Shown: positions 21,789 through 44,629 of the stretch, in pieces
Numbering within the stretch: position 1 is the stretch's first letter
Layout: every line of letters begins with the position of its first letter
From: Gemmatimonadota bacterium
GTDB lineage: Bacteria; Gemmatimonadota; Gemmatimonadetes; Gemmatimonadales; GWC2-71-9
Assembly (NCBI GenBank): GCA_003221995.1
Contig: QHUR01000034.1
Location: 1-54,599, forward strand
Direction: 5' to 3'
Length of the DNA: 54,599 bases
The notes under the pieces: generated by a model
Database searches by the model: none
What the model was told of the DNA's origin: nothing
What the model saw: the letters and a program-made list of their open reading frames with translations, nothing else
Program-made: the position numbers and the translations under genes

Positions 21789-22265
21789 GTGAGCCGGAGC
21801 CTCAATAAAGTCATGCTAATCGGGAACTTGGGCGCCGATCCCGAGGTGCGGAGCACTAACAACGGCGGCCGGGTGGCCAACCTGTCCCTTGCGACCAGCC
21901 GGCAGTGGACCGGAGCTGGGGGGGAGCGCCAGGAGAAGACCGAGTGGCACCGGGTCATCTGCTGGAACAACAAAGGCGCCCAGCTGGCCGATCTGGCCGA
22001 GAAGTACATGAAGAAGGGCGACAAGCTCTATGTCGAAGGCCGGGTCGAGTACCGCACCTGGGAAGACCGTGAGAAGCAGACGCGCTACGTCACCGAGATC
22101 ATCGCACGGGAAGTGATCCTGCTGTCGCCTCGTGGCAGCGGCGAAGCTGGAGCCGAGTTTGCGCGCCCGCGGGCCGCGGCCAAGGTCGCTCCCGAAGGCA
22201 AGCCGGAATCGCTCGACGCGTTCCCGGAGGCGCTTGATGAGGAGGACGACGATCTGCCGTTCTAA
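21789..22265 (+). CDS. ssb: Single-stranded DNA-binding protein
   Basis: The GTG at 21789 lies downstream of the promoter, whereas ORF 21726 would start inside the promoter. The product has the OB fold 'LNKVMLIGNLGADPEVR...TEWHRVICW' and the acidic tail ending 'DDDLPF'. Confidence 0.9.
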   Translation: MSRSLNKVMLIGNLGADPEVRSTNNGGRVANLSLATSRQWTGAGGERQEKTEWHRVICWNNKGAQLADLAEKYMKKGDKLYVEGRVEYRTWEDREKQTRYVTEIIAREVILLSPRGSGEAGAEFARPRAAAKVAPEGKPESLDAFPEALDEEDDDLPF

Positions 22266-23490
22266 CCGGGCAGTCCTGCTCGCCCTTGTTGCAGGGCTGC
22301 TCGGCGTGCCGGGGCTTGGGGCGCAGGACACGACCAGAGCCGCCGCCGACACTTCCCAGGCCCCGGCGGCCCCCGCGGGGCAGCTGCCTGAGAGCCACGT
22401 CGTGACGCAGGGTGAGACCCTCTGGTCGATCTCGCAGCTGTATTTCAGCGACCCCCTCCTCTGGCCCGAGATCTACCGGCTGAACACCGCGGTCGTGGAA
22501 GACCCCCACTGGATCTATCCGGGCGAAGTGTTGCACCTCGGGGCGCCGACGAGCGTCGCGCGAGTGTCGGCCGAGACGACGGCCGTGTCCGTCGGGCAGG
22601 CGGCCGCGGCCGACACGGTGCGGGCGCAGGGGGCGGACACGGCGGTGCGCGTCGATACGACCGTCGTCGATACGGCCCAGCTCGTCGAGGCGCCGCCGCC
22701 CCCGCCGGGCCCGACCGAGACGTACGAGACGATCTTCGACCGTGGGCGCTCCCGCACGGAGGAGGTGCAGGACATCCTCCGGGCCTATGCCAACCAGCCC
22801 TACCGGCCCTTGCGCCGCGGGGAGTTCTACGCGGCTGGGTTCCTGAGCGAGCGGGAACGGCTGCCCTGGGGCCTGGTGTTGGGCGCGACGGCGGTGCCGG
22901 CGGTCCCCCGCCTGACGCAGCATACGACCGCCACCGTGTTCGGGCAGATTGCCGTCCAACCGCCCCAGGGCGCGTCGTATCACGTGGGCGACTCGCTGCT
23001 CATCGCCCGGATCGACCGGGACCTCCCGTCCTGGGGCGACGTGGTGGTCCCTGTCGGCGTGGCCCGTGTGACGGACGTGCAGAAAAGTCAACTGCTCGGC
23101 GACGTGATCATGCAGTTCGGCCGGATCCATGACGGCAACCTGGCGATGCCGCTCGAGCCGTTCAAAGACGCGGGGGAGGTGCGGCCGGTGCCGGTGCGGA
23201 GAGGGCTCGAGGCCATCGTGATCTCGCAGCGGGATCTGCACGTGCTCACGAACGCTCAGCAGATTCTGTTCCTCGACAGGGGTCGCGCCGAGGGGGTGGT
23301 GCCGGGCGATCTGTTCGAGATCTATCGCCCCGCCTCGCGGGAGCTCGGGGGCGCCTCCGAGCAGCCGCTGATCGTGGTGGAGATCGTGCACACGCGGGAG
23401 CATTCCTGCTCCGGTCTCGTCCTCGGCATCACGCACCCCGGGGTGTTTCCGGGATCGCCCGCGCGCCTGATCCGGAAGATGCCCTCCTGA
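22237..23490 (+). CDS. Secreted LysM-domain protein
   Basis: An internal ATG gives the signal-like 'MRRTTICRSNRAVLLALVAGLLGVPGLGAQ'. The LysM motif is 'HVVTQGETLWSISQLYFSDPLLWPEIYRLNTAVVEDPHWIYPGEVLHL'. Confidence 0.65.
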   Translation: MRRTTICRSNRAVLLALVAGLLGVPGLGAQDTTRAAADTSQAPAAPAGQLPESHVVTQGETLWSISQLYFSDPLLWPEIYRLNTAVVEDPHWIYPGEVLHLGAPTSVARVSAETTAVSVGQAAAADTVRAQGADTAVRVDTTVVDTAQLVEAPPPPPGPTETYETIFDRGRSRTEEVQDILRAYANQPYRPLRRGEFYAAGFLSERERLPWGLVLGATAVPAVPRLTQHTTATVFGQIAVQPPQGASYHVGDSLLIARIDRDLPSWGDVVVPVGVARVTDVQKSQLLGDVIMQFGRIHDGNLAMPLEPFKDAGEVRPVPVRRGLEAIVISQRDLHVLTNAQQILFLDRGRAEGVVPGDLFEIYRPASRELGGASEQPLIVVEIVHTREHSCSGLVLGITHPGVFPGSPARLIRKMPS

Positions 23491-26545: not shown

Positions 26546-27265
26546 GTGTTCCTACAGGTCGGGCGAGCGATTCCCACCACTCCCTGGGAGCTGGTGCTGA
26601 CCTCGAGCCGCGAGACCAAGTTCGTGCTCGCGATCCTCGTCGTGTTCTCCCTGGTCTCGTGGTATCTCATCGCGCTGAAGTGGTGGCAGTTCCGCCGCAT
26701 GCGGCAGCAGGCCGACCGCTTCATGACGGAGATCGAGCGGGCGGCCCGTCTCGAGGACGCCTACCACGCCGCCATGCGGCTCCCGTCCTCGCCCTACAAC
26801 CGACTGCTGCGCGAGGGCATGCACTTCTTCGGGGAGCTGAAGCCGGGCGGCCTCAAGGCGGACGGGCCGATCGCACCGCCGCAGGCGACTCTCACGACCA
26901 CACAGCTCGAGGCACTGCGAATGGTGCTCGCCAAGGAAGTGGCCGCGGAGCGGGACGCCGCCGCGCGCTTCATCCCTTGGCTCGCCACGTTCGGCTCCGT
27001 GAGCCCGCTGCTCGGCCTGCTCGGCACGGTGCTCGGGGTGATGGACGCCTTCATCGGCATCGCGGTCGGCGGCTCCGGGAACATCGCGGCCGTCGCGCCG
27101 GGCGTCGCCGAGGCGCTCGTGACGACCGTCGGCGGCCTGGCCGTCGCCGTCCCCTCCGTGATGGCGTACAACCTGTTCGTGAACCGGCTGGGCCTGTTCG
27201 CGGGCGAACTGGAAGGCTTCGCCCAGGAGATCATCGGGACGATGGCGCGCGAAGGGAGGCTGTGA
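26546..27265 (+). CDS. tolQ: MotA/TolQ/ExbB proton-channel protein (TolQ)
   Basis: There are three TM segments and 'LATFGSVSPLLGLLGTVLGVMDAF ... APGVAEALVTTVGGLAVAVPSVMAYN'. The gene heads a tolR-tolA-tolB-pal run. Confidence 0.8.
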   Translation: MFLQVGRAIPTTPWELVLTSSRETKFVLAILVVFSLVSWYLIALKWWQFRRMRQQADRFMTEIERAARLEDAYHAAMRLPSSPYNRLLREGMHFFGELKPGGLKADGPIAPPQATLTTTQLEALRMVLAKEVAAERDAAARFIPWLATFGSVSPLLGLLGTVLGVMDAFIGIAVGGSGNIAAVAPGVAEALVTTVGGLAVAVPSVMAYNLFVNRLGLFAGELEGFAQEIIGTMAREGRL

Positions 27266-27702
27266 TGGCCGGCCTGCTGGGCGGCGGGGGCGGGCTTCGC
27301 GGCCATGGCGAGCTGCCGCTCACGGCCGACATCAACGTCACATCGCTCGTCGACGTGGCCTTCGTGCTGCTCATCATCTTCATGATCACCGCCCCCATCA
27401 TGCAGGGCGGCGTGGACGTGCGGCTGCCGCGCGCCGCGGCCCGGCCGCTCGAGCCCAAGGCCGGTCTCGTGATCAGCCTGGATCGCGACGGCAAGATCTA
27501 CCTCGACCAGGCAGCGCTCAGCTACGAGGACTTCCGCGCCACGTTCGGCGCGTTCGTGCGGACCAAACGGCCTGCCGGGGTGTACCTCCGGGCCGACGGA
27601 CGCGTCCCCTATGCGAACGTGGTGCAGGTGCTCGCGGTGATCCGGCAGTCGGGAGTGAGCGACGTCGGCCTGGTCGCCGAGCCGGAGACCCTCGAGCGGT
27701 GA
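27265..27702 (+). CDS. tolR: ExbD/TolR biopolymer-transport protein
   Basis: An internal ATG at 27265 overlaps the tolQ stop (TGATG). The product carries 'DINVTSLVDVAFVLLIIFMITAP' with the conserved Asp. Confidence 0.8.
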   Translation: MAGLLGGGGGLRGHGELPLTADINVTSLVDVAFVLLIIFMITAPIMQGGVDVRLPRAAARPLEPKAGLVISLDRDGKIYLDQAALSYEDFRATFGAFVRTKRPAGVYLRADGRVPYANVVQVLAVIRQSGVSDVGLVAEPETLER

Positions 27703-28388
27703 GGCGGCGGCAGCGCATCCCGGCGAACGTCGGCCTGGCGCTCGCCGCCACGCTGCTGGTGCACGGCAGCGCCGGCTTGTTTCTGTTCGCCGCGGCGGGC
27801 GAGGCGCGCCGGCCCGCGCCGCCCACGTACAAGGTGCGACTCATCGCAGCGCCAGCGCCCGAGGAAGCAACGCGCAAGGCGCCCGAGGCGCTGGAGCGGC
27901 CAGCCGAGGAGAAACCGGCGCCGCTGCCCAAGGCGAAACAGCCGCCCAAGAGCACGGTGTCCGCGGCCACGCCGCCCAAGACCGCGGACAATACCAAGCG
28001 CGAGGCGGCGCCGCGATCCACGCCGAAAGCCGCGCCGCTGCCGGGCGAGACGCCCTCCACCGGCTCCGACGTCGCCACGGTCAGCACCGAGGGCGTCGCG
28101 TTCCCGTTCCCCGAGTACCTGCAGAACATCGTGGGCCAGGTGCTGCGGCGCTGGCAGCGTCCGCTGCAGAGCTCGCCGCTCGAGGCGGAGGTGTCGTTCT
28201 TCATTCATCGGGACGGCGCGGTGAGCGATCTCCAGTTCATCAGGCGCTCCGGCAACTTCAGTTTCGATCTGGAGGCCCAGGGAGCGATCGAGGAGGCCGG
28301 TCGGTTCAAGGCGTTCGGCGCTCTGCCCGACGGCTGGAGCGCGGACGTGCTGTTCGTGCGGTTCTACTTCTCGGGGAGACGCCAGTGA
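27699..28388 (+). CDS. TonB/TolA-family energy-transducer (TolA-like by position)
   Basis: The product has an N-terminal anchor 'LALAATLLVHGSAGLFLF', a Pro/Lys/Ala-rich linker and a C-terminal TonB_C-like fold 'FPFPEYLQNIVGQVLRRWQ...FFIHRDGAVSDLQFIRRSGNFSFDLEAQGAIE'. Confidence 0.6.
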   Translation: MRRRQRIPANVGLALAATLLVHGSAGLFLFAAAGEARRPAPPTYKVRLIAAPAPEEATRKAPEALERPAEEKPAPLPKAKQPPKSTVSAATPPKTADNTKREAAPRSTPKAAPLPGETPSTGSDVATVSTEGVAFPFPEYLQNIVGQVLRRWQRPLQSSPLEAEVSFFIHRDGAVSDLQFIRRSGNFSFDLEAQGAIEEAGRFKAFGALPDGWSADVLFVRFYFSGRRQ

Positions 28389-29806
28389 GCCGGACGGCCG
28401 GACAGTCGGACCGTCGGACCGTGGCCCCCGCAAGGGCAGCAGCTCTTCTGGCGGGTGCTGTTCTGTCCGTCTGTCCGACCGTCCGACTGTCCGGCCAGGA
28501 CAGCTCCGTCGTCGACCGCGGCGTCCGCGTGGGCATCATCTACCGCCCCGGCGTGCGGCCCGGCATGGTGCTCTTGCCCGGCCGGCCGGCGGTGCTCGAC
28601 TCGGTGCGCGCCATCGTCGCCCGTGACCTCGACTACAGCGATCGCTTCGAGATGATCACGCTGCCCGGCGGGGACTCGATCCGCCTGGGCGCGGCGGCGA
28701 ACCCCACCCGCTCGTCGGGACGCGGGCGGACCGGCGGGGGGGGCGGCGAGGCGGCGGGGCTGAACTACCCGCTGTTCCAGGCCCTGGGCGCGGACTTCGC
28801 GGTCGCGCTGGCACAGGCCACCGACACGACGGTTGTCACGCTGCACGACGTCGCGGCCGGCGGCGTGCGCCGCGAGGTGAAGAAGCGGCTGCCGCCTCTC
28901 ACGAGCCCCGACTTCCGGCTCGCGGTGCATCGGCTCGCCGATCAGGTGCTGCAGGCGAGCCTCGGCGCGCCCGGCGTCGCCGCGAGCCGGCTGCTCTTCG
29001 TGATGGACGGGAAGGTCTGGCAGATCGACCAGGACGGGGCCGACAAGAGGCTCGTCTCCTCGAGCGACCGGCAGGCCATGTCGCCCGCCTGGGCGGCTGA
29101 CGGGCGGCGCTTCGCGTACATGGAGTTCTGGGCGGGTCACGGGCAGCTGTTCGTGCAGGACATGGCGACGGGGAAGCGCGCCGCAGTGGTGACGACCGGC
29201 GCGGCGCTCGATTTCACGCCGGCGTTCTCGCCCGACGGCAAGACGTTGGCCTTCAGTCGCGCCATCGAGGAAGGCACCGACGTCTACACCGTCAACCTCA
29301 AGGACAACTGCTGCTTGCAGCGCTTGACCGTGGGGCGCTTTTCAGACAACTTGTCACCCACCTACAGTCCGGACGGACAGCGGATTGCGTTCGTCTCGAC
29401 GCGTGCGGGGTTGCCGCAGATCTATGTGATGGCGGCGGATGGGACGGACCAGCAGCTGTTCGCGCCGTTCGACTACGGCGTCACGGGTTCGTCCAATGCG
29501 CCGGAGTGGTCGCCCGACGGACAGTCGGTCGCGTTTCACCGCGACGTCGCCGGCACGCTGCAGGTCTTCGTGCTCGACGTGCGGACGCGCACCGTACGGC
29601 AACTCACCTCGGTCGGGCGAAACGAGGATCCAACCTGGGCGCCCGACAGCCGTCATCTCTGCTTCGTGTCGGACCGCTCGGGGTATCGGCAGCTCTGGAT
29701 CATCGATTTGGAAACCGGTCGTATCCGCCCGCTGCTGCAGCAGAGCGGCGCGCGGCTGCCGGCATGGTCTCCACGGCTTCCGGAGACTGCTGCTTCCACC
29801 CCGTAA
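28385..29806 (+). CDS. tolB: Tol-Pal system beta-propeller protein TolB
   Basis: Repeated 'SP(D/A)G' blades are present (FSPDGKTLAF, YSPDGQRIAF, WSPDGQSVAF, WAPDSRHLCF). The GTG start overlaps the upstream TGA. Confidence 0.85.
   Translation: MSRTAGQSDRRTVAPARAAALLAGAVLSVCPTVRLSGQDSSVVDRGVRVGIIYRPGVRPGMVLLPGRPAVLDSVRAIVARDLDYSDRFEMITLPGGDSIRLGAAANPTRSSGRGRTGGGGGEAAGLNYPLFQALGADFAVALAQATDTTVVTLHDVAAGGVRREVKKRLPPLTSPDFRLAVHRLADQVLQASLGAPGVAASRLLFVMDGKVWQIDQDGADKRLVSSSDRQAMSPAWAADGRRFAYMEFWAGHGQLFVQDMATGKRAAVVTTGAALDFTPAFSPDGKTLAFSRAIEEGTDVYTVNLKDNCCLQRLTVGRFSDNLSPTYSPDGQRIAFVSTRAGLPQIYVMAADGTDQQLFAPFDYGVTGSSNAPEWSPDGQSVAFHRDVAGTLQVFVLDVRTRTVRQLTSVGRNEDPTWAPDSRHLCFVSDRSGYRQLWIIDLETGRIRPLLQQSGARLPAWSPRLPETAASTP
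28391..28493. repeat. Inverted pair of 4x8-nt tandem microrepeat arrays inside the tolB 5' coding region
   Basis: The left array is CGGACGGC CGGACAGT CGGACCGT CGGACCGT (28391-28422). The right array is TCTGTCCG TCTGTCCG ACCGTCCG ACTGTCCG (28462-28493). Segments 28396-28419 and 28473-28496 are reverse complements with one mismatch in 24 nt. The spacer is 39 nt. Confidence 0.9.
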
Positions 29807-29826
29807 ACCTGGGAGAGAGGGTGACG

Positions 29827-30438
29827 ATGAGACGCCTACCATTGCTGGTGCTGGCCGGTCTCGCGGCGGCGGCGCTCGCCGCGTGCGGCGGCAGTCCGCC
29901 GCCGCAGACTGCCCCGCAGCCCAACGCTGACTCCATCGCGGCCGCCGAGCGCGCGGAGGCCGACCGCCGGGCGCGCGAAGAGGCCGACGCGCGGGCGCGC
30001 GAGGAGGCGGAGCGGATTGCCCGGCAGCGGGCGGCCGATTCGCTCGCCGCCATGGGGCGCACGACGGAAGCCGTGCGTACGATGCTCGCGACGATGATCC
30101 ACTTCGACTTCGACAAGTCGAATATCCGCCCGGACGACGCCGGCGTGCTGGATCAGAAGATCTCGATCCTGCAGGCGAATCCCAACTTGCGGATCCGGAT
30201 CTCCGGGCACTGCGACGAGCGCGGGTCGGACGAGTACAACCTCGCGCTCGGCAACCGGCGCGCCACCTCGGCGAAGCAGTACGTCGTGAGCCACGGCATC
30301 GACGCGGGTCGCATCGAGACCGTGTCGTATGGCGAGGAGCGGCCGATCGCGCAGGGCCACGACGAAACGGCGTGGGCGCAGAACCGCCGCGACGAGTTCG
30401 AAATTCTCTCCGGCGGTGACGCGTTGCGGCACCCGTAG
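29827..30438 (+). CDS. pal: Peptidoglycan-associated lipoprotein Pal (OmpA-family)
   Basis: 'MRRLPLLVLAGLAAAALAAC' is a lipobox. The OmpA_C motifs are 'IHFDFDKSNIRPDD', 'GHCDERGSDEYNLALGNRRA' and 'NRRDEFEI'. Confidence 0.85.
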   Translation: MRRLPLLVLAGLAAAALAACGGSPPPQTAPQPNADSIAAAERAEADRRAREEADARAREEAERIARQRAADSLAAMGRTTEAVRTMLATMIHFDFDKSNIRPDDAGVLDQKISILQANPNLRIRISGHCDERGSDEYNLALGNRRATSAKQYVVSHGIDAGRIETVSYGEERPIAQGHDETAWAQNRRDEFEILSGGDALRHP

Positions 30439-30448
30439 GCGGGCGTCC

Positions 30449-31231
30449 GTGTCGCGCCACGTGGCGTTCGTCCTCGGCCTGGGGCTCGCCGCCGGCTGCG
30501 CCCTCAAGGGGGACGTCCGGAAGGTCGAGCTCCAGGTCGCGGCGCTGAAGGCCGACGCCGCGCGCGCCGACGCCGACCGGGCGGCGCAGATCGACTCCGT
30601 GCTCAAGCTGCTCGCCGCCGTGCAGCAGGCGGTCGCGGCCCAGCAGGCCTATCTCGTCCAGTTCCGCGGCGACGTCCGCACCGACCTGGTCGGCGTGCAG
30701 CAGCAGCTCGTCACGGTGCAGGAGCTGACGGGCCAGAGCCAGCAGCGCCTCTCGGAGCTCCGGGCCCGCATCGAGGAGCGGGCCCAGCAGCCCGTCCCAC
30801 CGTTGGACACGAGCGCCGTCCGGGCGCCGGTCGGTCCGTCCGGGAACCCGGCCGGTCCCGGTCCGGCGCACATGTACGATCTCTCCCTCCAGCAGTTCCG
30901 CCGTGGCAGCCTCGGCACGGCCAGGCTCGGGTTCCGTGAGTTCCTGCGTGTCTACCCCGGGGACGAGCGGGCCGCGGACGCGCTGTTCTACATCGGGGAG
31001 ACGTTCGCGACCGAGAGCCCCGACTCGGCCGCGGCGGTGTATGAGCAGGTCGTGAAGAGCTATCCCAACTCGTCGCGGGCGCCGGCCGCCCTGTACAAGC
31101 TGGGTCTCGTCGCCGAGGCGCGGGGCGACAAAAAGGCGGCGCGGACGTACTATGCCAGAGTCGTCGCCGGGTATCCCCGCTCGGACGAGGCCAACCTCGC
31201 CCGCGACAAGCTGCAACGCCTGGGGCGCTGA
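30449..31231 (+). CDS. cpoB: Tol-Pal-associated protein CpoB/YbgF (coiled coil + TPR)
   Basis: The GTG at 30449 gives the signal/lipobox 'VSRHVAFVLGLGLAAGC'. A coiled-coil segment follows, then the TPR region 'ADALFYIGETF...YPNSSRAPAALYKLGLVAEARGDKKAARTYYARVVAGYPRSDEA'. Confidence 0.7.
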   Translation: MSRHVAFVLGLGLAAGCALKGDVRKVELQVAALKADAARADADRAAQIDSVLKLLAAVQQAVAAQQAYLVQFRGDVRTDLVGVQQQLVTVQELTGQSQQRLSELRARIEERAQQPVPPLDTSAVRAPVGPSGNPAGPGPAHMYDLSLQQFRRGSLGTARLGFREFLRVYPGDERAADALFYIGETFATESPDSAAAVYEQVVKSYPNSSRAPAALYKLGLVAEARGDKKAARTYYARVVAGYPRSDEANLARDKLQRLGR

Positions 31232-31266: not shown

Positions 31267-31989
31267 GTGCCTGACCCAGCTCCGCGCGGCGAGATGCCCT
31301 TCCTCGACCACCTCGAGGAACTGCGCTGGCGCATCCTGAAGAGCCTGCTGGTGATCGTCGTGGCCACCCTCGTCGGCTGGTTCATCGTGCAGTCGGTGGA
31401 CGTGATCGCCGTGCTGAAGCGTCCCATCGCGCCGCTCCTGCCCGGCGGTCGGTTGGTGTTCACGAGCCCGACCGAGCCGTTCCTCATCACGCTCAAGTTC
31501 GCCTTCGTGGTAGGCCTCCTGTTTGCGTCGCCGTTTGTGATCTACCAGGCCTGGGCATTCCTCGCGCCCGCGCTGTACGACCGTGAGCGGCGCGTGATCG
31601 TCCCGGCCCTGTCGGTGGGCGTGGTGCTGTTTCTGCTCGGCGCCGGTGTCGCGTACGAGTGGGTGTTGCCGCGCGCGCTCGCGGTGCTGTTCAGCTTCCA
31701 GCGCAGCGACCTCGCCCCGATCATCACGGCGGACAACTACTTCGGATTCGCCGCGCAGATCATGATCGCGTTCGGGCTCGTGACCGAGCTGCCCTTGGTC
31801 GTCGTGATCCTCGCGGCCCTGGGCCTCGTCACGCCTCAGTTCCTGGCGCACAACCGGCGCTACGCCCTCGTGATCGCCGCCCTCGCCGCGGCGCTGCTCA
31901 CGCCGCCCGATGCGGTCTCGATGCTGCTGATGATGGTGCCGCTCGTGCTGCTGTACGAGGTGAGTATCTGGTGCGCCTGGGTCGTCACG
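31267..31989 (+). other. tatC: TatC domain (Sec-independent translocase component, 6 TM segments)
   Basis: The domain carries 'MPFLDHLEELRWRILKS', 'FTSPTEPFLITLKFAF', 'YQAWAFLAPALY..ER' and 'AALLTPPDAVSMLLMMVPLVLLYEVS', which together make a complete TatC. Confidence 0.85.
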
Positions 31990-34824
31990 CGGCGTCGCGC
32001 GCGGCGCGCCCAGGCGGCCGCCCGCGCGGGGATCGTGCTGCTGGCGCTGTGCGGGCTCGGCGCGGGCCGGCTCGCCGCCCAGGGCGCGGTCCCCCGCCCC
32101 CGCAGGCCCGTCTCATCCCGGCCCGACACCACCCCGCGGGCGGGTGCGCCGGGGACGGGAGCGCCGCAGGGGCAGTCGCTCGACACCGCGGCCGCCCGCC
32201 GGCTCGGGCTGCCGACCGGTCCCACGCGCAGCTTCCCCCCGAGCGACGCCGTCATGGATTCGCTTCTCAAGCTGAAGGGGTACCGGGTCACGCAATACGT
32301 CGCCGACACGCTCGTCGTCCAGGGCGACAGCCAGACGATCTTCCTCCGCGGGGAAAGCTTCGTGGACCGCCAAGGCACGAAGCTCGAGGCGGATTCGATC
32401 CGCTATCGCGACGCGAGCTGCCGCCTCGACGCCGCCGGCGACCCGCGGCTGTTCGATCAGGGAACCGTGCTGGTGGGGGAGGGGATGCGCTACGACACCT
32501 GCATCCGGCGGGGGACGGTCCGCAGCGCGCTCACCACGTTCCAGCAGGGCGGCGCCACCTGGTACACGCGGGGCGATCTCGCCGTGGACTCGGGCTCCAC
32601 CAGGGTGTACGGCGCCTCCAGCGAGATCACGTCCTCGGATCTCCCCATGCCCGACTACCACTTCGCCGCGCACGAGGTGAAGTGGCTCAACAAGAACGTC
32701 ATGGTGGCGCGGCCCGCCGTGCTGTATATCCGCGATGTCCCGATTCTCTGGCTGCCGTTCATCTTTCAGGACATCCGGCCCGGGCGGCGCAGCGGCATTC
32801 TGGTGCCGCGCTTCGGGCTGAACGACCTGGTGCGGCCGACCCGCAGCTACCAGCGGCACGTCGCGAACCTCGGCTACTACTGGGTACTCGGCAATTACGC
32901 GGACCTGCTGCTCTCGGGCGACTGGTACGCGAGCCGCTACGTGTCGCTCCGCGCGCAAACGCACTACCGCTGGCTGGATCGCTTTCTCTCCGGCTCGTTC
33001 TCATACTCCCGGGTGGACCAGCTCGACGCCGCCGCACATTCGAGCCGCTTCGGGTGGCAGCACCAGCAGAGCTTCTCGAGTCGGACGCGCTTCAATGCGA
33101 GCATCGATTACGCGACGAGCGCCAGCGTCATTCAGACCAACGCCGTGGATCCCTACGTCGCGACCGCGCAGCTCACCTCGCAGGTGAACTTCGACAAGCG
33201 GTTCGATTGGGGCACCCTCAACGTCGGTGGCAGCCGCTCGCAGAACCTGGCCAACGATCTCGTCAACCAGAACTTCCCGCGTCTGAGCCTCACGCCGTCT
33301 CCCGTGAACATCACGCCGTCGATCACGTGGTCGCCGGGGTTCTCGTTCAACAACGCCCAGAACTTCCATGTGGGGCCGACGTTCCTGCTCGCCCCCGGCA
33401 CGGGCGGGGCAGGGGTGGACACACTGCGGATCTTCTCCGACACCCGGCAGACGGACCTCAGCCTGCAAACACCGCTCCGGGTCGGTCGCTGGACGTGGTC
33501 GAACAGCGTCAGCGTGAGCGACCAGATCAGCAACGCCCGTCAGGAGTTCTTGATCCCGGACTCCACCGTGCCGGGCGGGGTGCGGCACCTGCTCTATGGC
33601 CAGACGTTCGCGACCGCGATCGACTGGCAAACCGGGATCAACCTGCCGCCGTTGTTCACCGGGACGTGGAAGCTGCAACCCGGCGTCTCGGTCGTGAACA
33701 CGACGTCCGCCGGTCCCTTCATGATCCGCAACCAATTCTCGGACGGTCGCTTCGTGCGCCAGGGGAAGCGACTGCAGTTCGCCGCCAGCATGTCGCCCAC
33801 GTTCTTCGGGTTCTTTCCGGGCATCGGGCCGCTCGAGCGGATTCGGCACTCGCTGTCGCCGCTCATCAGCTACCGCTACGCCCCCGGCGCGCAGGTCTCC
33901 GCCGAGTTCGCCCGGGTGCTCGACCCGACGGGCCAGACCCTGAACGCCCGCACCGATCCCCAACAGACTATCAGCGTCGGCCTGTCCCAGAACATCGAGG
34001 CGAAGCTGCGCCGCTCCGCGCGCGATACGTCGGCGCAGGCAACGGCGCGCAAGATCCGCCTGCTCGGCATCAACACCGACGCCGTGTCCTACAACTTCGA
34101 GCAGGCGAAGCAGCCAGGGCGGACGGGGTGGCAGACGCAGAGCATCGGCAATACGTTCGCGTCGGACTTGCTCCCCGGCTTCAGCCTGCGCACCACCCAC
34201 GACCTGTGGGACGGCCCGGTGGGCCTGGCGACGTCGGAGTTCTCGCCGTTCCTCACGAGCCTCACCGCGTCGTTCTCCGTGAGCCCGGCGACGATTCGCG
34301 GGATCGCGAGACTCTTCGGCCTCGCGAAGCAAGGGGAGCCGTCCGCGACGCCGCCCGCAACCGGCTCGGGCACGCCGCCGCCACCCCCCGCGTACGGGCA
34401 GAGCTGCCCTCCGGTTTGCTCGGGCGCGGCTGGCGGGTACCGACCGGGCCGCGCCGGCGGGGGCGGACGGGGATTCGGGCTCGCCGTGGGGTACACGAGC
34501 AGCCGCACGCGCCCTCCCAAGGTCACCACCCCTGGCACCGGCGCGTTTCTGCCGAGCGCCCTGGCCAGCCAGCGGCAGGCCACGCTCAACATGAACTTCA
34601 GCCCCACCGCCCTCTGGACCGCGTCCTGGAGCACGCTGTACGACCTGAATACGCGCCAGTTCGGCCAGCACTACGTGCGACTCGAGCGGGACCTGCGCCG
34701 CTGGCACGCCAGCTTCGCCTTCGTCAAGAGCCCGAACGGCAACTTCGCGTTCAACTTCTACGTCGCTCTGATCGACCAGCCCGATATCAAGTTCGATTAC
34801 GAGCAGCAGAGCCTGCAGCGCTGA
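31267..34824 (+). CDS. Single uninterrupted 1185-codon ORF: TatC translocase domain fused in frame to an LptD/OstA-like outer-membrane protein
   Basis: I read no stop codon in this frame across the junction (31981-32100 checked codon by codon). The TatC part and LptD-like part are itemised below. The start may be GTG 31267 or ATG 31294. Confidence 0.6.
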   Translation: MPDPAPRGEMPFLDHLEELRWRILKSLLVIVVATLVGWFIVQSVDVIAVLKRPIAPLLPGGRLVFTSPTEPFLITLKFAFVVGLLFASPFVIYQAWAFLAPALYDRERRVIVPALSVGVVLFLLGAGVAYEWVLPRALAVLFSFQRSDLAPIITADNYFGFAAQIMIAFGLVTELPLVVVILAALGLVTPQFLAHNRRYALVIAALAAALLTPPDAVSMLLMMVPLVLLYEVSIWCAWVVTRRRARRAQAAARAGIVLLALCGLGAGRLAAQGAVPRPRRPVSSRPDTTPRAGAPGTGAPQGQSLDTAAARRLGLPTGPTRSFPPSDAVMDSLLKLKGYRVTQYVADTLVVQGDSQTIFLRGESFVDRQGTKLEADSIRYRDASCRLDAAGDPRLFDQGTVLVGEGMRYDTCIRRGTVRSALTTFQQGGATWYTRGDLAVDSGSTRVYGASSEITSSDLPMPDYHFAAHEVKWLNKNVMVARPAVLYIRDVPILWLPFIFQDIRPGRRSGILVPRFGLNDLVRPTRSYQRHVANLGYYWVLGNYADLLLSGDWYASRYVSLRAQTHYRWLDRFLSGSFSYSRVDQLDAAAHSSRFGWQHQQSFSSRTRFNASIDYATSASVIQTNAVDPYVATAQLTSQVNFDKRFDWGTLNVGGSRSQNLANDLVNQNFPRLSLTPSPVNITPSITWSPGFSFNNAQNFHVGPTFLLAPGTGGAGVDTLRIFSDTRQTDLSLQTPLRVGRWTWSNSVSVSDQISNARQEFLIPDSTVPGGVRHLLYGQTFATAIDWQTGINLPPLFTGTWKLQPGVSVVNTTSAGPFMIRNQFSDGRFVRQGKRLQFAASMSPTFFGFFPGIGPLERIRHSLSPLISYRYAPGAQVSAEFARVLDPTGQTLNARTDPQQTISVGLSQNIEAKLRRSARDTSAQATARKIRLLGINTDAVSYNFEQAKQPGRTGWQTQSIGNTFASDLLPGFSLRTTHDLWDGPVGLATSEFSPFLTSLTASFSVSPATIRGIARLFGLAKQGEPSATPPATGSGTPPPPPAYGQSCPPVCSGAAGGYRPGRAGGGGRGFGLAVGYTSSRTRPPKVTTPGTGAFLPSALASQRQATLNMNFSPTALWTASWSTLYDLNTRQFGQHYVRLERDLRRWHASFAFVKSPNGNFAFNFYVALIDQPDIKFDYEQQSLQR
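32083..34824 (+). other. LptD/OstA-like domain (N-terminal OstA-like jellyroll plus large beta-barrel region)
   Basis: This region is preceded by 'RRRARRAQAAARAGIVLLALCGLGAGRLAAQ/GA', which is signal-peptide-like. It contains 'VVQGDSQTIFLRGESFVDRQGTKLEADSIRYRDASCRLDAAGDPRLF', 'DYHFAAHEVKWLNKNVMVARPAVLYIRDVPILWLPFIF' and 'VANLGYYWVLGNYADLLLSGDWY', with alternating beta-strand patterns through to the end. Confidence 0.55.
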
Positions 34825-34958
34825 CGAGTGGCGGTTGTCCTCTGGGTGTGACACGGGCAGAGGTGTGCGCCGGCGTAAGCGGCGCCGCTCGCACGACTTG
34901 CCTGCAGGCACGGCGCCTGCTTAACGCTCCGCCCGAACCCTTCGTCCATGAGGATGGC

Positions 34959-35849
34959 ATGCGCCTTCGCTCGCGATACGCCTTGTTGGCGGCCGCCGGA
35001 CTGCTGAGCTTCGGCTGCCAGACCACGACGACGCCCGTCGGCACCACGCAGCCCCTGCCTGCGCCAAACGACTTGCGGTCGATCTCCCTGAACGAGGCGA
35101 TCTTCCTCGAGTGGACTGACAACGCCGCCCTGTCGGATCCCGGGCGGTTTGCGTGGTACCGCGTCTACAGCGCGAGCTACGATCTCGGCCAGGGGCTGTG
35201 TGGCACCGACTGGGTGATTGAAGGCACCACGATCTCGAACGAGTTTCTCGTTGCCTTGCTCACCAACGGCGTGCCGCGCTGCTACGCGACCTCCGCGATC
35301 AGTAGCGAAGGCCTGGAGAGCGCGTGGTCTCCGCCATGGCAGGACACGCCGCGGCCCGATGCTCGGAACGTCCTCGTATACACGAACGCGGAGAATCTCG
35401 CGCAGTCGGGCTTCCGATTCTGGGTGGACGCCAACAACGACGGCGTGGCACAACCCACCGAGCTCGGCATCGTCACCAGCGGCAGCGATCCTGACAACGA
35501 CGTCCGGATTGACCTCAATCCGGCCGACTCCTCGCTGTGGATCGTCCCGGTGTTCGCGGGGACAAGCGTGCAGCTGTACAGCTCCGAGCCGATCGCTGAC
35601 CTCACCTCCATCGACGCTGCTGCGGCGAGCGGCTACGCGCGCGACCCCCTCCTGGCGCAGCCCGGCTTCGGGTACGTGTTCGAGATCGTCGAAGGCTTGG
35701 TGAAGCGCTACGCCGGGTTGCGTGTGACGCACGTGGGCCGGCAGTATCTGATCTTCGATTTCAGCGTGCAGACGGATCCGGGGAACCTGGAGCTGGCGCC
35801 GCCCAGGGGCCCGACGCTCACCGGGAAGCAGGTGGCAGGGTCGAGGTAG
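34959..35849 (+). CDS. Hypothetical lipoprotein with an FN3-like N-terminal domain
   Basis: An internal ATG at 34959 gives the lipobox 'MRLRSRYALLAAAGLLSFGC'. The FN3-like stretch is 'PNDLRSISLNEAIFLEWTDNA...FAWYRVYSAS'. The long upstream part of ORF 31659..35849 is an off-frame shadow of the LptD-like gene. Confidence 0.55.
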   Translation: MRLRSRYALLAAAGLLSFGCQTTTTPVGTTQPLPAPNDLRSISLNEAIFLEWTDNAALSDPGRFAWYRVYSASYDLGQGLCGTDWVIEGTTISNEFLVALLTNGVPRCYATSAISSEGLESAWSPPWQDTPRPDARNVLVYTNAENLAQSGFRFWVDANNDGVAQPTELGIVTSGSDPDNDVRIDLNPADSSLWIVPVFAGTSVQLYSSEPIADLTSIDAAAASGYARDPLLAQPGFGYVFEIVEGLVKRYAGLRVTHVGRQYLIFDFSVQTDPGNLELAPPRGPTLTGKQVAGSR

Positions 35850-44174: not shown

Positions 44175-44411
44175 ATGTTTGGGGACCTGTCGTTCAGCCA
44201 CATCCTGATCCTGCTGCTCGTTCTGGTGCTCGTGTTCGGCGCGAAGCGGATCCCGGAGATCGGCTCGTCGTTGGGTCAGGGGATCAAGGAGTTCAAGCGG
44301 AGCTTGAAGGACGTCGTGGGCGACGAGCCGGCCGCGCCACGCACCGCTCCGCCCGCCTCCACTTCGTCCTCCCTCCCCTCGGGCGGGGAGCCGAAGCGCC
44401 TCAACCAGTAG
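44175..44411 (+). CDS. tatA: Twin-arginine translocase subunit TatA/E
   Basis: 'ILILLLVLVLVFGAKRIPEIGSSLGQGIKEFKRSL' shows a TM helix, the FG hinge and an amphipathic helix. Confidence 0.85.
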   Translation: MFGDLSFSHILILLLVLVLVFGAKRIPEIGSSLGQGIKEFKRSLKDVVGDEPAAPRTAPPASTSSSLPSGGEPKRLNQ

Positions 44412-44422
44412 CGGGAGGGGAG

Positions 44423-44629
44423 ATGCTGGGCAACCTGAGCGGCGGCGAAATCCTCATCCTGCTGCTCGTCGTGCTGCTGGTGTTCGGGGCGGGTCGCCTG
44501 CCGGAAGCCGGCAAAGCGGTGGGCAAGGGACTGCGCGAATTCAGCCGCGCCCTGAACGAGGCACGGGACTCTATCGAGCGGCCAGCCGAGCCGCCGCGGG
44601 ACGCGCGTCCCAAGCGGCTGGTCGACTAG
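44423..44629 (+). CDS. Second TatA-family protein (possibly TatB-like)
   Basis: An internal ATG at 44423 is preceded by GGAGGGGAG. The product reads 'MLGNLSGGEILILLLVVLLVFGAGRLPEAGKAVGKGLREFSRAL'. The Glu at position 9 sits where TatB proteins carry a conserved Glu. Confidence 0.75.
   Translation: MLGNLSGGEILILLLVVLLVFGAGRLPEAGKAVGKGLREFSRALNEARDSIERPAEPPRDARPKRLVD

What the first reader, a model, noticed from the sequence alone, without database searches (positions are those of the whole stretch)
31267..34824. Complete TatC fused in frame, without any stop codon, to an LptD/OstA-like outer-membrane protein via a signal-peptide-like segment
A full six-TM TatC (through ...LLYEVSIWCAWVV) runs straight into 'TRRRARRAQAAARAGIVLLALCGLGAGRLAAQ|GAVPRP'. 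That segment has an Arg-rich n-region, a roughly 17-residue hydrophobic h-region and an A-A-Q/G cleavage-like site. About 915 residues follow, with an OstA-like N-domain and LptD-like beta-barrel hallmarks. I read 31981-32100 codon by codon and found no stop, and both halves share one frame. A simple indel therefore cannot explain the junction, because an indel would change the frame. TatC's C-terminus is cytoplasmic, so the hydrophobic segment would act as a seventh TM or internal signal anchor and export the LptD-like part. If signal peptidase cleaves it, this would be a polyprotein-style co-production of an inner-membrane translocase subunit and an outer-membrane LPS-insertase-like barrel. 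The ORF sits immediately after the tolQRAB-pal-cpoB envelope operon. I am not aware of this arrangement having been described. The alternatives are a stop-to-sense substitution or error, or an independent internal initiation (candidate GTGs at 31960 or 32035) that yields a separate LptD-like precursor.
Basis: partly seen in the sequence, partly recalled or inferred. Interest (0 to 1): 0.75.

Follow-up and report, generated by a model that had tools for sequence, protein, structure and literature searches.

The report
Natural TatC–LptD fusion gene
In this soil bacterium and many of its Gemmatimonadota relatives, an inner-membrane export protein (TatC) and an outer-membrane lipopolysaccharide insertase (LptD) are encoded as one long protein joined through LptD's old signal peptide, which most likely still acts as the cutting site that separates them after synthesis.

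Summary
ORF 31267-34824 (1185 aa, no stop) is a complete TatC fused in frame to a complete LptD-like protein (jellyroll plus large β-barrel).

It is not an error. 72 of 80 Gemmatimonadota species genomes, and more than 240 protein clusters from independent assemblies, have the same single ORF in the same tolQRAB-pal-cpoB-(nrdR)-tatC/lptD-hutH context.

Unfused relatives have tatC and lptD touching or overlapping (TAG-GTG, TGATG, GTGA). Their LptD starts with a signal peptide ending [L/A]-x-[A/G]|Q. The fusion keeps that peptide internally (residues 254-271, Q272 invariant).

Fused forms appear at four or more places in the LptD tree. Their hydrophobic segment and linker are no longer than in unfused forms, and no internal start codon is conserved.

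Best explanation (about 0.72): one polypeptide is made, TatC inserts, the retained signal peptide exports the LptD part, and signal peptidase I cuts at A271|Q272. This would give about 29.5 kDa TatC and about 100 kDa LptD. Cleavage is inferred, not shown.

I found no paper describing the architecture; databases simply label it 'TatC'. It is a new variant of known kinds, of moderate interest.

The parts
31267..34824 (+). Whole fusion ORF (1185 aa plus stop). An alternative start is ATG 31294 (M10).
   Evidence: P0001 is 100% identical and 1176 aa.
31294..31986 (+). TatC domain, residues 10-240, with six TM helices.
   Evidence: Pfam TatC 6e-62. TIGR00945 scores above its cut-off. It aligns end to end with Aquifex TatC 4b4a, E=9e-48. 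Hydropathy shows TMs near 23-41, 74-92, 110-128, 165-183, 193-211 and 216-234.
31987..32025 (+). Basic cytoplasmic spacer TRRRARRAQAAAR (residues 241-253, +6 charge). This is TatC's normal basic C-terminal tail, which doubles as the n-region of the internal signal peptide. Its length varies among homologs.
   Evidence: (Aquifex has TRKKKE at the same place).
32026..32067 (+). h-region AGIVLLALCGLGAG (residues 254-267), a 14-residue uncharged core corresponding to the signal-peptide core of unfused LptD.
32068..32082 (+). c-region and predicted signal peptidase I site R-L-A-A|Q. Cleavage is predicted between A271 (32077-32079) and Q272 (32080-32082).
   Evidence: Q272 is invariant and A271 is at least 90% conserved in 93 fusions. 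The -1 residue is A/G/S in 60 of 60 loci and the -3 residue is L/A/V in 55 of 60. Unfused signal peptides carry the same motif.
32083..32196 (+). Variable, Pro/Arg-rich disordered linker at the N-terminus of the mature LptD part (about residues 273-310).
   Evidence: pLDDT below 50 in both models. The region varies in the alignment. Unfused orthologs have a linker of the same length.
32290..32802 (+). β-sandwich (OstA/LptA-like jellyroll) domain, about residues 342-512, with invariant C385 and C412.
   Evidence: The model has pLDDT 80-90 with β strands. The profile hits the LptD, LptA and LptH jellyroll region. Full-length LptD ranks top in the fold searches. Invariant Cys residues are listed.
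32857..34812 (+). Large C-terminal β-barrel (about residues 531-1182) with one long disordered Gly/Pro-rich loop (about residues 1022-1062).
   Evidence: Pfam LptD_2. The top 37 Foldseek PDB hits are all LptD, E=5.5e-26 to 1e-8.
26546..31231 (+). Upstream tolQ-tolR-tolA-tolB-pal-cpoB cluster. Only 35 nt separate the cpoB stop from the fusion ORF, and no terminator-like site was found.
   Evidence: The same synteny is seen in relatives.
44175..44411 (+). tatA-family gene 1 (78 aa), a partner of TatC.
   Evidence: PF02416, E=4.7e-16.
44423..44629 (+). tatA-family gene 2 (68 aa), a partner of TatC.
   Evidence: PF02416, E=1e-17.

Best explanation
This is a real, evolutionarily fixed gene fusion of two neighbouring, translationally coupled envelope genes: tatC and an LptD-family gene.

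**How it most likely works**
1. Translation starts at the tatC start and yields a precursor of about 130 kDa.
2. The six TatC helices insert into the inner membrane with the C-terminal basic cluster in the cytoplasm.
3. The next segment is the former LptD signal peptide: a short 14-residue hydrophobic core preceded by +6 charge. It inserts N-in/C-out and starts Sec-dependent export of the following 914 residues.
4. Signal peptidase I cuts after A271 (L-A-A|Q).
5. This releases a mature LptD of about 100 kDa with an N-terminal Gln, which is then assembled in the outer membrane as usual.
6. It leaves a TatC of about 29.5 kDa that carries the used signal peptide as an extra C-terminal helix.

**What is shown**
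- The single ORF and the identity of both domains.
- The correspondence between the junction and a signal peptide.
- Conservation of the cleavage motif.
- Recurrence of the fusion.
- Absence of conserved internal starts.

**What is inferred**
- The membrane insertion order.
- The cleavage itself, and the fate of the two products.

The fusion probably arose neutrally. One indel or one stop-to-sense change suffices, and it persists because the internal signal peptide makes the fused and unfused states functionally equivalent.
For: **The ORF and both domains are real**
-.

**The fusion is conserved**
- All 120 best hits carry PF00902 plus PF19838 at about 1150-1200 aa.
- A second search returned another 120 distinct fused clusters.
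- 72 of 80 GTDB species genomes are fused in frame, despite many junction indels.

**The junction corresponds to a signal peptide**
- Unfused relatives have tatC next to lptD, with an LptD N-terminal signal peptide ending xA|Q.
- 68 of the 74 standalone homologs could be parsed as carrying such a peptide.

**The cleavage motif is kept in the fusions**
- Q272 is invariant and A271 is at least 90% conserved.
- The -1 residue is A/G/S in 60 of 60 loci, and the -3 residue is L/A/V in 55 of 60.
- TolB and another exported protein of the window also have G/A|Q sites.

**There is no adaptation towards a permanent anchor or tether**
- h-region length has a median of 17 in both groups (p=0.68).
- Linker length is 51.5 versus 55 aa (p=0.09).
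- The core is 14 uncharged residues with KD 1.57, against 2.1-2.5 for the TatC TMs. The preceding loop carries +6 charge.

**The fusion recurs independently**
- Fused forms sit at four or more separate tree positions.
- P0196 is fused (6 contigs) while its sister P0216 is unfused in an identical context. P0170 is fused on 5 contigs.

**A one-step mutational route exists**
-.

**TatC is needed and intact**
- E18 and E107 are invariant.
- Two tatA genes lie in the window.
- The one Gemmatimonadetes genome surveyed in 2013 had a single tatC (PMC3827258).
Against: - No experimental or proteomic evidence for cleavage was available.
- No dedicated signal-peptide or topology predictor (SignalP, DeepTMHMM) could be run.
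- AlphaFold models the junction with low confidence, as one long helix merging TM6 and the h-region.
- Whether fused genomes hold a second, standalone tatC or lptD could not be checked.
- My parse of the +1 Q was conditioned on finding a Q. The independent support for it is the alignment.
- The NJ tree is a rough distance tree without support values, so the number of independent fusions is approximate.
Confidence: 0.72

Rival explanations
1. Uncleaved envelope-spanning protein. The hydrophobic segment is a permanent seventh TM. The roughly 50-residue disordered linker plus the jellyroll spans the periplasm, so TatC in the inner membrane stays covalently tethered to the LptD barrel in the outer membrane.
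For: - The ORF is continuous.
- The linker is disordered and 44-60 residues long in most fusions. Fully extended, and together with the jellyroll, it might just reach across a periplasm. That estimate is my own, not a computed result.
- The tatC-lptD linkage is conserved across the phylum.
Against: - The -1 and -3 small or aliphatic residues and the +1 Q of a signal peptidase I site are conserved exactly as in unfused orthologs.
- Neither the h-region nor the linker is longer in fused forms.
- One fused lineage (P0170) has a linker of only 17 residues.
- The core is only 14 uncharged residues in the window.
- Repeated switches between fused and unfused states in close relatives argue that the two states are functionally equivalent.
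Confidence: 0.08
2. Two proteins by internal translation initiation. Ribosomes start independently near the junction (for example at GTG 31960 or 32035) and make a separate LptD precursor. The full-length fusion would be a minor or non-functional by-product.
For: - In-frame GTGs exist at 31960 and 32035.
- Some lineages have an ATG 6-10 codons after the basic cluster.
Against: - No start codon is positionally conserved.
- 15 of 60 fused loci, the window included, have none between TM6 and the h-region.
- The V232 column is start-capable in 28 of 72 loci, with no SD-like motif in any of them.
- A start at V257 would truncate the h-region and remove the n-region.
- SD-like motifs occur in only 8 of 60 loci.
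- The reading frame is preserved across 72 species despite many junction indels. That would be unnecessary if LptD were initiated independently.
Confidence: 0.07
3. The precursor is split, but not (or not only) by signal peptidase I at A271|Q272. For example, another protease could cut in the disordered linker, or a second intramembrane cut could also remove the h-segment from TatC.
For: - The linker (residues 273-310) is disordered and accessible.
- The fate of the TatC-attached signal peptide is unknown.
Against: - The linker sequence is poorly conserved.
- The only invariant junction features are those of a signal peptidase I site.
Confidence: 0.1
4. Artefact or pseudogene: an assembly or sequencing error, or a recent inactivating mutation, removed the tatC stop codon.
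For: Low-coverage MAG contigs do contain such errors. L076 shows apparent frameshifts.
Against: - The same uninterrupted ORF is found in 72 of 80 species-level genomes and in more than 240 clusters from NCBI, JGI, ENA and Logan.
- Both halves are highly conserved.
Confidence: 0.01

Closest known systems
TatC, the receptor subunit of the twin-arginine translocase (E. coli TatC; Aquifex aeolicus TatC, PDB 4b4a/4hts)
   Same: - The N-terminal 240 residues are a complete six-helix TatC. TIGR00945 scores above its cut-off, and the match to 4b4a has E=9e-48 over the whole chain.
- The conserved glutamates (E18, E107) and the basic tail after TM6 are present.
- tatA genes lie nearby.

   Different: - Canonical TatC ends in the cytoplasm shortly after TM6.
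- Here the chain continues into a signal peptide and a 914-residue outer-membrane protein.
- If cleaved as proposed, this TatC keeps an extra C-terminal hydrophobic helix.
LptD (OstA/Imp), the LPS-assembly outer-membrane protein of the LptDE translocon (PDB 4q35, 8h1s, 7omm)
   Same: - It has an N-terminal jellyroll followed by a very large β-barrel.
- The top 37 PDB fold hits are all LptD.
- The profile hits Neisseria LptD (4e-15) and the LptA/LptH jellyroll.
- Pfam assigns LptD_2.

   Different: - Sequence identity is only about 10-12%.
- It scores far below the NCBIfam LptD equivalog cut-offs (25 bits against 683).
- It is larger (914 aa mature) and has a disordered N-terminal linker of about 40 residues and a long Gly/Pro loop.
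- Its signal peptide is internal rather than N-terminal.
- No LptE partner was identified.
Unfused tatC-lptD gene pairs of other Gemmatimonadota (e.g. loci L001, L057, L064, L086; protein P0123, 'putative LPS assembly protein LptD')
   Same: - Synteny is the same (pal-cpoB-(nrdR)-tatC-lptD-hutH).
- The proteins are orthologous (up to 48% identity in LptD).
- The signal peptide has the same architecture and xA|Q site.
- The linker length is the same.

   Different: They are two ORFs separated by a stop (TAG-GTG, TAG-G-GTG) or overlapping (TGATG, GTGA). LptD has its own start codon.
Bradyrhizobium japonicum FbcH, a cytochrome b/c1 precursor split at an internal signal peptide (Thony-Meyer et al., around 1989-1991; cited from my own knowledge, as no paper could be retrieved)
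   Same: - A polytopic inner-membrane protein whose C-terminus is cytoplasmic is fused to a downstream exported protein.
- The join is that protein's retained signal peptide.
- One gene gives two proteins after signal-peptidase cleavage.
   Different: - The FbcH partners are subunits of one complex and both stay at the inner membrane.
- Here the two halves belong to different machines (Tat export and LPS insertion), and the distal one must travel to the outer membrane.
- Cleavage is demonstrated for FbcH but not here.
Bacteroidetes 'Q-rule': Gln at +1 of signal peptidase I sites, cyclised to pyroglutamate (PMC5837995, PMC10653852)
   Same: The junction, the unfused LptD signal peptides and two other exported proteins of the window all have Q at +1.
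   Different: - The rule was described as specific to Bacteroidetes, and Gemmatimonadetes were not analysed.
- Neither the presence of a glutaminyl cyclase nor pyroglutamate formation was tested here.

Membership tests
TatC (PF00902 / TIGR00945) | HMM score above the curated cut-off over the full model length | tested here: met
   Pfam gives 209.6 bits (cut-off 25.1) over profile positions 1-208 of 208. TIGR00945 gives 196.8 bits (cut-off 132.7).
TatC (PF00902 / TIGR00945) | Six transmembrane helices with the C-terminus on the cytoplasmic side | tested here: met
   There are six hydropathy peaks, and the sequence aligns end to end with the Aquifex TatC structure 4b4a. A +6 basic cluster follows TM6. 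The orientation itself is inferred from the positive-inside rule.
TatC (PF00902 / TIGR00945) | Conserved glutamates of the twin-arginine signal-peptide binding site (E. coli E15 and E103; numbering from my own knowledge) | tested here: met
   E18 (HLEELR) and E107 (PALYDRERR) are invariant in 93 fused sequences and align with the Aquifex HLRELR and PALYSHEKR motifs.
TatC (PF00902 / TIGR00945) | TatA-family partner encoded in the genome | tested here: met
   Two tandem PF02416 genes lie at 44175-44411 and 44423-44629.
TatC (PF00902 / TIGR00945) | Protein ends shortly after TM6 (stand-alone polypeptide of about 230-280 aa) | tested here: not met
   The ORF continues for another 940 residues. This could only be met post-translationally, if cleavage occurs.
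LptD (LPS-assembly outer-membrane protein) | N-terminal OstA/LptA-like β-jellyroll domain | tested here: met
   The β-sandwich at residues ~342-512 has pLDDT 80-90. The profile matches the jellyroll region of LptD 7omm (4e-15), LptA 8onu and LptH 4uu4. Pfam LptD_N (PF03968) appears only as a 'faint' hit in homolog P0170.
LptD (LPS-assembly outer-membrane protein) | Very large C-terminal β-barrel (26 strands in solved LptD) | tested here: inconclusive
   The top 37 fold-search hits are all LptD, E down to 5.5e-26, and Pfam LptD_2 gives 146 bits against a cut-off of 22.5. However, TM-scores are only 0.42-0.55, and I did not establish the strand number from the model.
LptD (LPS-assembly outer-membrane protein) | Equivalog-level sequence match to characterised LptD (NCBIfam NF002997 / NF003358) | tested here: not met
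   It scores 24-25 bits against cut-offs of 683 and 944. It is a distant LptD_2-type relative, not an equivalog.
LptD (LPS-assembly outer-membrane protein) | LptE lipoprotein plug partner, and function in LPS insertion | not tested
   No LptE was identified. The downstream lipoprotein-like gene (34959-35849) has no family or PDB match and is absent from that position in some relatives. Function is not testable with these tools.
LptD (LPS-assembly outer-membrane protein) | N-terminal Sec signal peptide cleaved by signal peptidase I | tested here: not met
   The signal-peptide homolog lies at residues 241-271, not at the N-terminus. Its n-, h- and c-regions are intact.
Membrane polyprotein split at an internal signal peptide (FbcH type) | Upstream polytopic membrane protein ending in the cytoplasm, followed by a signal peptide with a signal peptidase I motif and then an exported protein | tested here: met
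Membrane polyprotein split at an internal signal peptide (FbcH type) | Demonstrated proteolytic separation into two mature proteins | not testable with these tools
   This needs western blotting, N-terminal sequencing or proteomics.

The most novel reading that the evidence does not exclude
The fusion protein is not cleaved, or is only partly or conditionally cleaved. A fraction would then persist as a covalent inner-membrane-to-outer-membrane bridge tying the Tat receptor to the LPS insertion site next to the Tol-Pal machinery. Alternatively, the retained seventh helix on TatC changes how the Tat translocon assembles in this phylum.
Probability: 0.08. Interest if true: 0.9.

Novelty: new variant of a known kind. 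Interest (0 to 1): 0.55.

Why it matters
- **A natural experiment in membrane-protein biogenesis.** If the proposed processing is right, a Sec signal peptide placed after six transmembrane helices still exports and releases a 100-kDa β-barrel precursor. Evolution has found this arrangement acceptable several independent times.
- **A rare bacterial case of one gene giving two proteins through signal peptidase.** The two products end up in different membranes.
- **A phylum-wide operon link.** tatC-lptD is tied to the Tol-Pal cluster across Gemmatimonadota.
- **A consequence for TatC.** These TatC proteins would carry an extra C-terminal helix next to TM6.
- **An annotation problem.** Hundreds of database entries are labelled only 'TatC', which hides the only recognisable LptD-like gene at this locus. 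Pathway reconstructions may therefore wrongly score these genomes as lacking LptD.

Tried and rejected
**Readings considered and rejected**
- *Sequencing or assembly error:* rejected because of conservation.
- *Tether adaptation (longer h-region or linker in fused forms):* no difference.
- *Lipoprotein reading of 'LALC':* rejected. The -1 Leu does not fit a lipobox (my own knowledge of the consensus), and the Cys is not conserved.
- *'TRRRARR' as a twin-arginine (Tat) export signal for the LptD part:* rejected.
  - It aligns with the normal basic tail of TatC.
  - It is separated from the h-region by a variable spacer of 4-26 residues.
  - Unfused LptD signal peptides lack an RR consensus.

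**Searches that led nowhere**
- *A cultured organism with the fusion:* two homolog searches and two cluster look-ups named only MAGs. The status of Gemmatimonas aurantiaca and other isolates remains unknown.
- *Literature:* TatC+LptD+fusion, TatC+Gemmatimonadetes, LptD+Gemmatimonadota and fbcH found no description of the architecture. The FbcH precedent papers were also not found.
- *The downstream lipoprotein-like gene as an LptE candidate:* no Pfam, NCBIfam or PDB match.
- *Promoter and terminator scan around the gene:* nothing found.

Full report
**1. The observation**

The window holds one uninterrupted ORF at 31267..34824 on the + strand (1185 aa).
- Pfam assigns TatC to residues 14-225 (E=6e-62) and LptD_2 (PF19838) from residue 480 (E=1.5e-42).
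- The NCBIfam tatC equivalog TIGR00945 scores 196.8 bits against a cut-off of 132.7.
- The gene follows ExbD/TolR, a TolA-like protein, TolB, Pal and CpoB, and it precedes hutH.
- No promoter-like or terminator-like site separates it from cpoB, which ends 35 nt upstream.
- The start may be ATG 31294 rather than GTG 31267, because the identical database protein is 1176 aa.

**2. Both halves are complete proteins**

*TatC half*
- It aligns end to end with the crystallised Aquifex TatC (4b4a, E=9e-48, query 10-248 against chain 1-238). The basic cluster after TM6 matches the normal TatC tail.
- Hydropathy shows six strong TMs.
- The signal-binding glutamates (E18, E107) are invariant in 93 fused homologs.
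- Two tandem tatA-family genes lie 9.4 kb downstream.

*LptD half*
- A profile of this part matches Neisseria LptD (7omm, 4e-15) and, weakly, the LptA and LptH jellyrolls.
- An AlphaFold model (mean pLDDT 77.7) shows a disordered N-terminal stretch of about 38 residues, then a β-sandwich, then a long β-barrel region.
- Its top 37 PDB matches are all LptD (E=5.5e-26 to 1e-8). Full-length LptD ranks first, and the next family (TonB-dependent receptors) starts at E≈1e-6.
- The whole-fusion model gave the same picture and also recovered TatC structures.
- This is a distant, LptD_2-type relative. It falls far below the NCBIfam equivalog cut-offs.

**3. It is not an error: the fusion is the norm in its lineage**
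- The 120 best homologs from NCBI, JGI, ENA and Logan all carry both domains in about 1150-1200 aa, at 64-100% identity. Sources name them 'TatC' from Gemmatimonadales or Gemmatimonadetes.
- A second profile search returned 120 further fused clusters.
- I scanned one genome per GTDB species and classified the 80 best loci, all labelled Gemmatimonadota, Gemmatimonadales or Gemmatimonadaceae apart from one titled only 'Bacterium HR33':
  - 72 have TatC and LptD in one frame without a stop.
  - 5 are split.
  - 3 are cut by contig ends.
- The closest locus (L004, 93%) is a soil Gemmatimonadetes MAG.

**4. What the junction is**

Unfused relatives settle this.
- In L001 the order is pal-cpoB-tatC-lptD, with tatC ending one base before the lptD start.
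- That LptD begins with a classical signal peptide, V/M-RAGWIAAFALALAATSGVA|QVPRRE.
- Other split loci show TAG-GTG in the same frame (L057), a TGATG overlap (L064) and TAG-G-GTG (L083). L076 looks like a fused gene with assembly frameshifts.
- More distant unfused members overlap by 4 nt (L086, and P0216's contig).
- An exhaustive search with the LptD part found 2314 relatives. Of the 80 full-length representatives among the best 150, 74 are standalone and 6 are fused. 68 of the 74 standalone ones could be parsed as having an N-terminal signal peptide ending A/G|Q.

In the fusions the same element sits internally:
- a basic cluster, then a variable spacer, then an uncharged core, then [L/A]-x-[A/G]-Q;
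- Q272 is invariant and A271 is at least 90% conserved in 93 sequences;
- the -1 residue is A/G/S in 60 of 60 parsed loci, and the -3 residue is L/A/V in 55 of 60.

TolB and another exported protein of the window also have G/A|Q sites. This resembles the Bacteroidetes Q-rule, which was never examined in this phylum.

**5. Discriminating the mechanisms**

*Internal initiation*
- No start codon is conserved between TM6 and the h-region. 15 of 60 loci, the window included, have none, and SD-like motifs occur in 8 of 60.
- GTG 32035 lies inside the h-region.

*Permanent tether*
- Fused and unfused forms do not differ in h-region length (median 17 in both, p=0.68).
- They do not differ in linker length either (51.5 versus 55 residues, p=0.09).
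- The window's core is only 14 uncharged residues with lower hydropathy than the TatC TMs. It is preceded by a +6 loop that dictates an N-in/C-out orientation.

*Recurrence*
- In a distance tree of the LptD part, fused forms occupy four or more separate positions among unfused ones.
- P0196 (fused, 6 contigs) and its sister P0216 (unfused) share the same nrdR-tatC-lptD-hutH context. P0170 is fused on 5 contigs.
- In L086 the lptD frame is open for at least 30 codons upstream of its start. A single 1-nt indel in the TatC tail would fuse the genes. In L057 a single stop-to-sense change would do the same.

Easy gain, repeated gain, and no compensatory change together indicate that the fused and unfused states are functionally equivalent. 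That is expected if signal peptidase I still separates the two proteins.

**6. Most likely mechanism (confidence about 0.72)**
1. One polypeptide of 129.6 kDa is made.
2. TatC inserts into the inner membrane.
3. The retained signal peptide initiates export of the LptD part.
4. Cleavage at A271|Q272 yields a 29.5 kDa TatC, with the spent signal peptide as an extra helix, and a 100.1 kDa LptD.

Steps 2-4 are inferred, not shown. The rivals are:
- cleavage elsewhere, or an additional cleavage (0.10);
- an uncleaved bridge across the envelope (0.08);
- internal initiation (0.07);
- an artefact (0.01).

**7. Comparison with what is known, and novelty**
- Each domain belongs to a known family.
- From my own knowledge, the closest mechanistic precedent is the Bradyrhizobium FbcH cytochrome b/c1 precursor, which is split at an internal signal peptide. 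I could not retrieve those papers.
- Searches for TatC+LptD+fusion, TatC+Gemmatimonadetes and LptD+Gemmatimonadota found no description of this architecture.
- A 2013 TatC survey lists one Gemmatimonadetes genome with one tatC and one tatA, and it does not mention a fusion.
- The proteins are in public databases but are labelled only as TatC.
- I rate it a new variant of known kinds, with interest about 0.55. It is a real, widespread and undescribed architecture, but its most probable explanation is mechanistically conventional.

**8. Limits**
- No cleavage data were available, and no dedicated signal-peptide predictor could be run.
- I could not check whole genomes for second copies of tatC or lptD.
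- The tree is a simple NJ tree without support values.
- No cultured organism with the fusion was identified.

Noticed in passing
window 44175-44411 and 44423-44629 (+): Two tandem TatA_B_E-family genes (78 and 68 aa; PF02416, E=5e-16 and 1e-17) lie about 9.4 kb downstream of the tatC-lptD fusion. The Tat partners are therefore encoded separately from TatC.
   Followed up: yes
window 28385-29806 (TolB), about 22.2 kb (ORF 22132-23490), and the N-termini of 68 of the 74 standalone LptD_2 homologs (P0123-P0245): Predicted signal peptidase I sites are followed by Gln (...RLSG|QDSS, ...GLGA|QDTT, ...xA|Q). This Q-rule-like pattern has so far been described as specific to Bacteroidetes and was not analysed in Gemmatimonadota. 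Only a handful of proteins were looked at here.
   Followed up: partly
window 34959-35849 (+): The gene immediately after the fusion encodes a 296-aa lipoprotein-like protein (MRLRSRYALLAAAGLLSFGC|QTTT) with no Pfam, NCBIfam or PDB match. A no-Pfam gene of 382-390 aa sits at the same position in L001 and L002, but hutH follows directly in L084 and L086. Whether it is an LptE-like partner is unknown.
   Followed up: partly
L084, L085, L087, L088 and the contig of P0216: In several distant lineages an nrdR gene (Zn_ribbon_NrdR plus ATP-cone) is inserted between cpoB and tatC. The hut (histidine utilisation) genes follow lptD across much of the phylum. The synteny of these unrelated functions is remarkably stable.
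   Followed up: no
L076 (JBGAOL010000031.1), about 1040-1300: This 'split' locus shows two frame changes within the TatC C-terminal region, while the usual junction peptide (...LLLLLLAGGAAGVSA|QQ) is readable. It is most likely a fused gene carrying assembly errors, not a true split.
   Followed up: partly
window 31659-35849 (+) and 33001-34911 (-): Very long alternative-frame ORFs (1396 aa and 636 aa) overlap the fusion gene. These are typical spurious open frames of a 70% GC genome. Only the last ~300 codons of the 1396-aa frame (the lipoprotein-like gene) look real.
   Followed up: partly
PDB hits (9e02_E 382 aa, 9e03_A 409 aa): Some solved 'TatC' chains (Nitratifractor, Myxococcus) are much longer than 250 aa, and the TatC match starts well inside the Nitratifractor chain. 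Other natural TatC extensions or fusions may therefore exist. I did not examine this.
   Followed up: no
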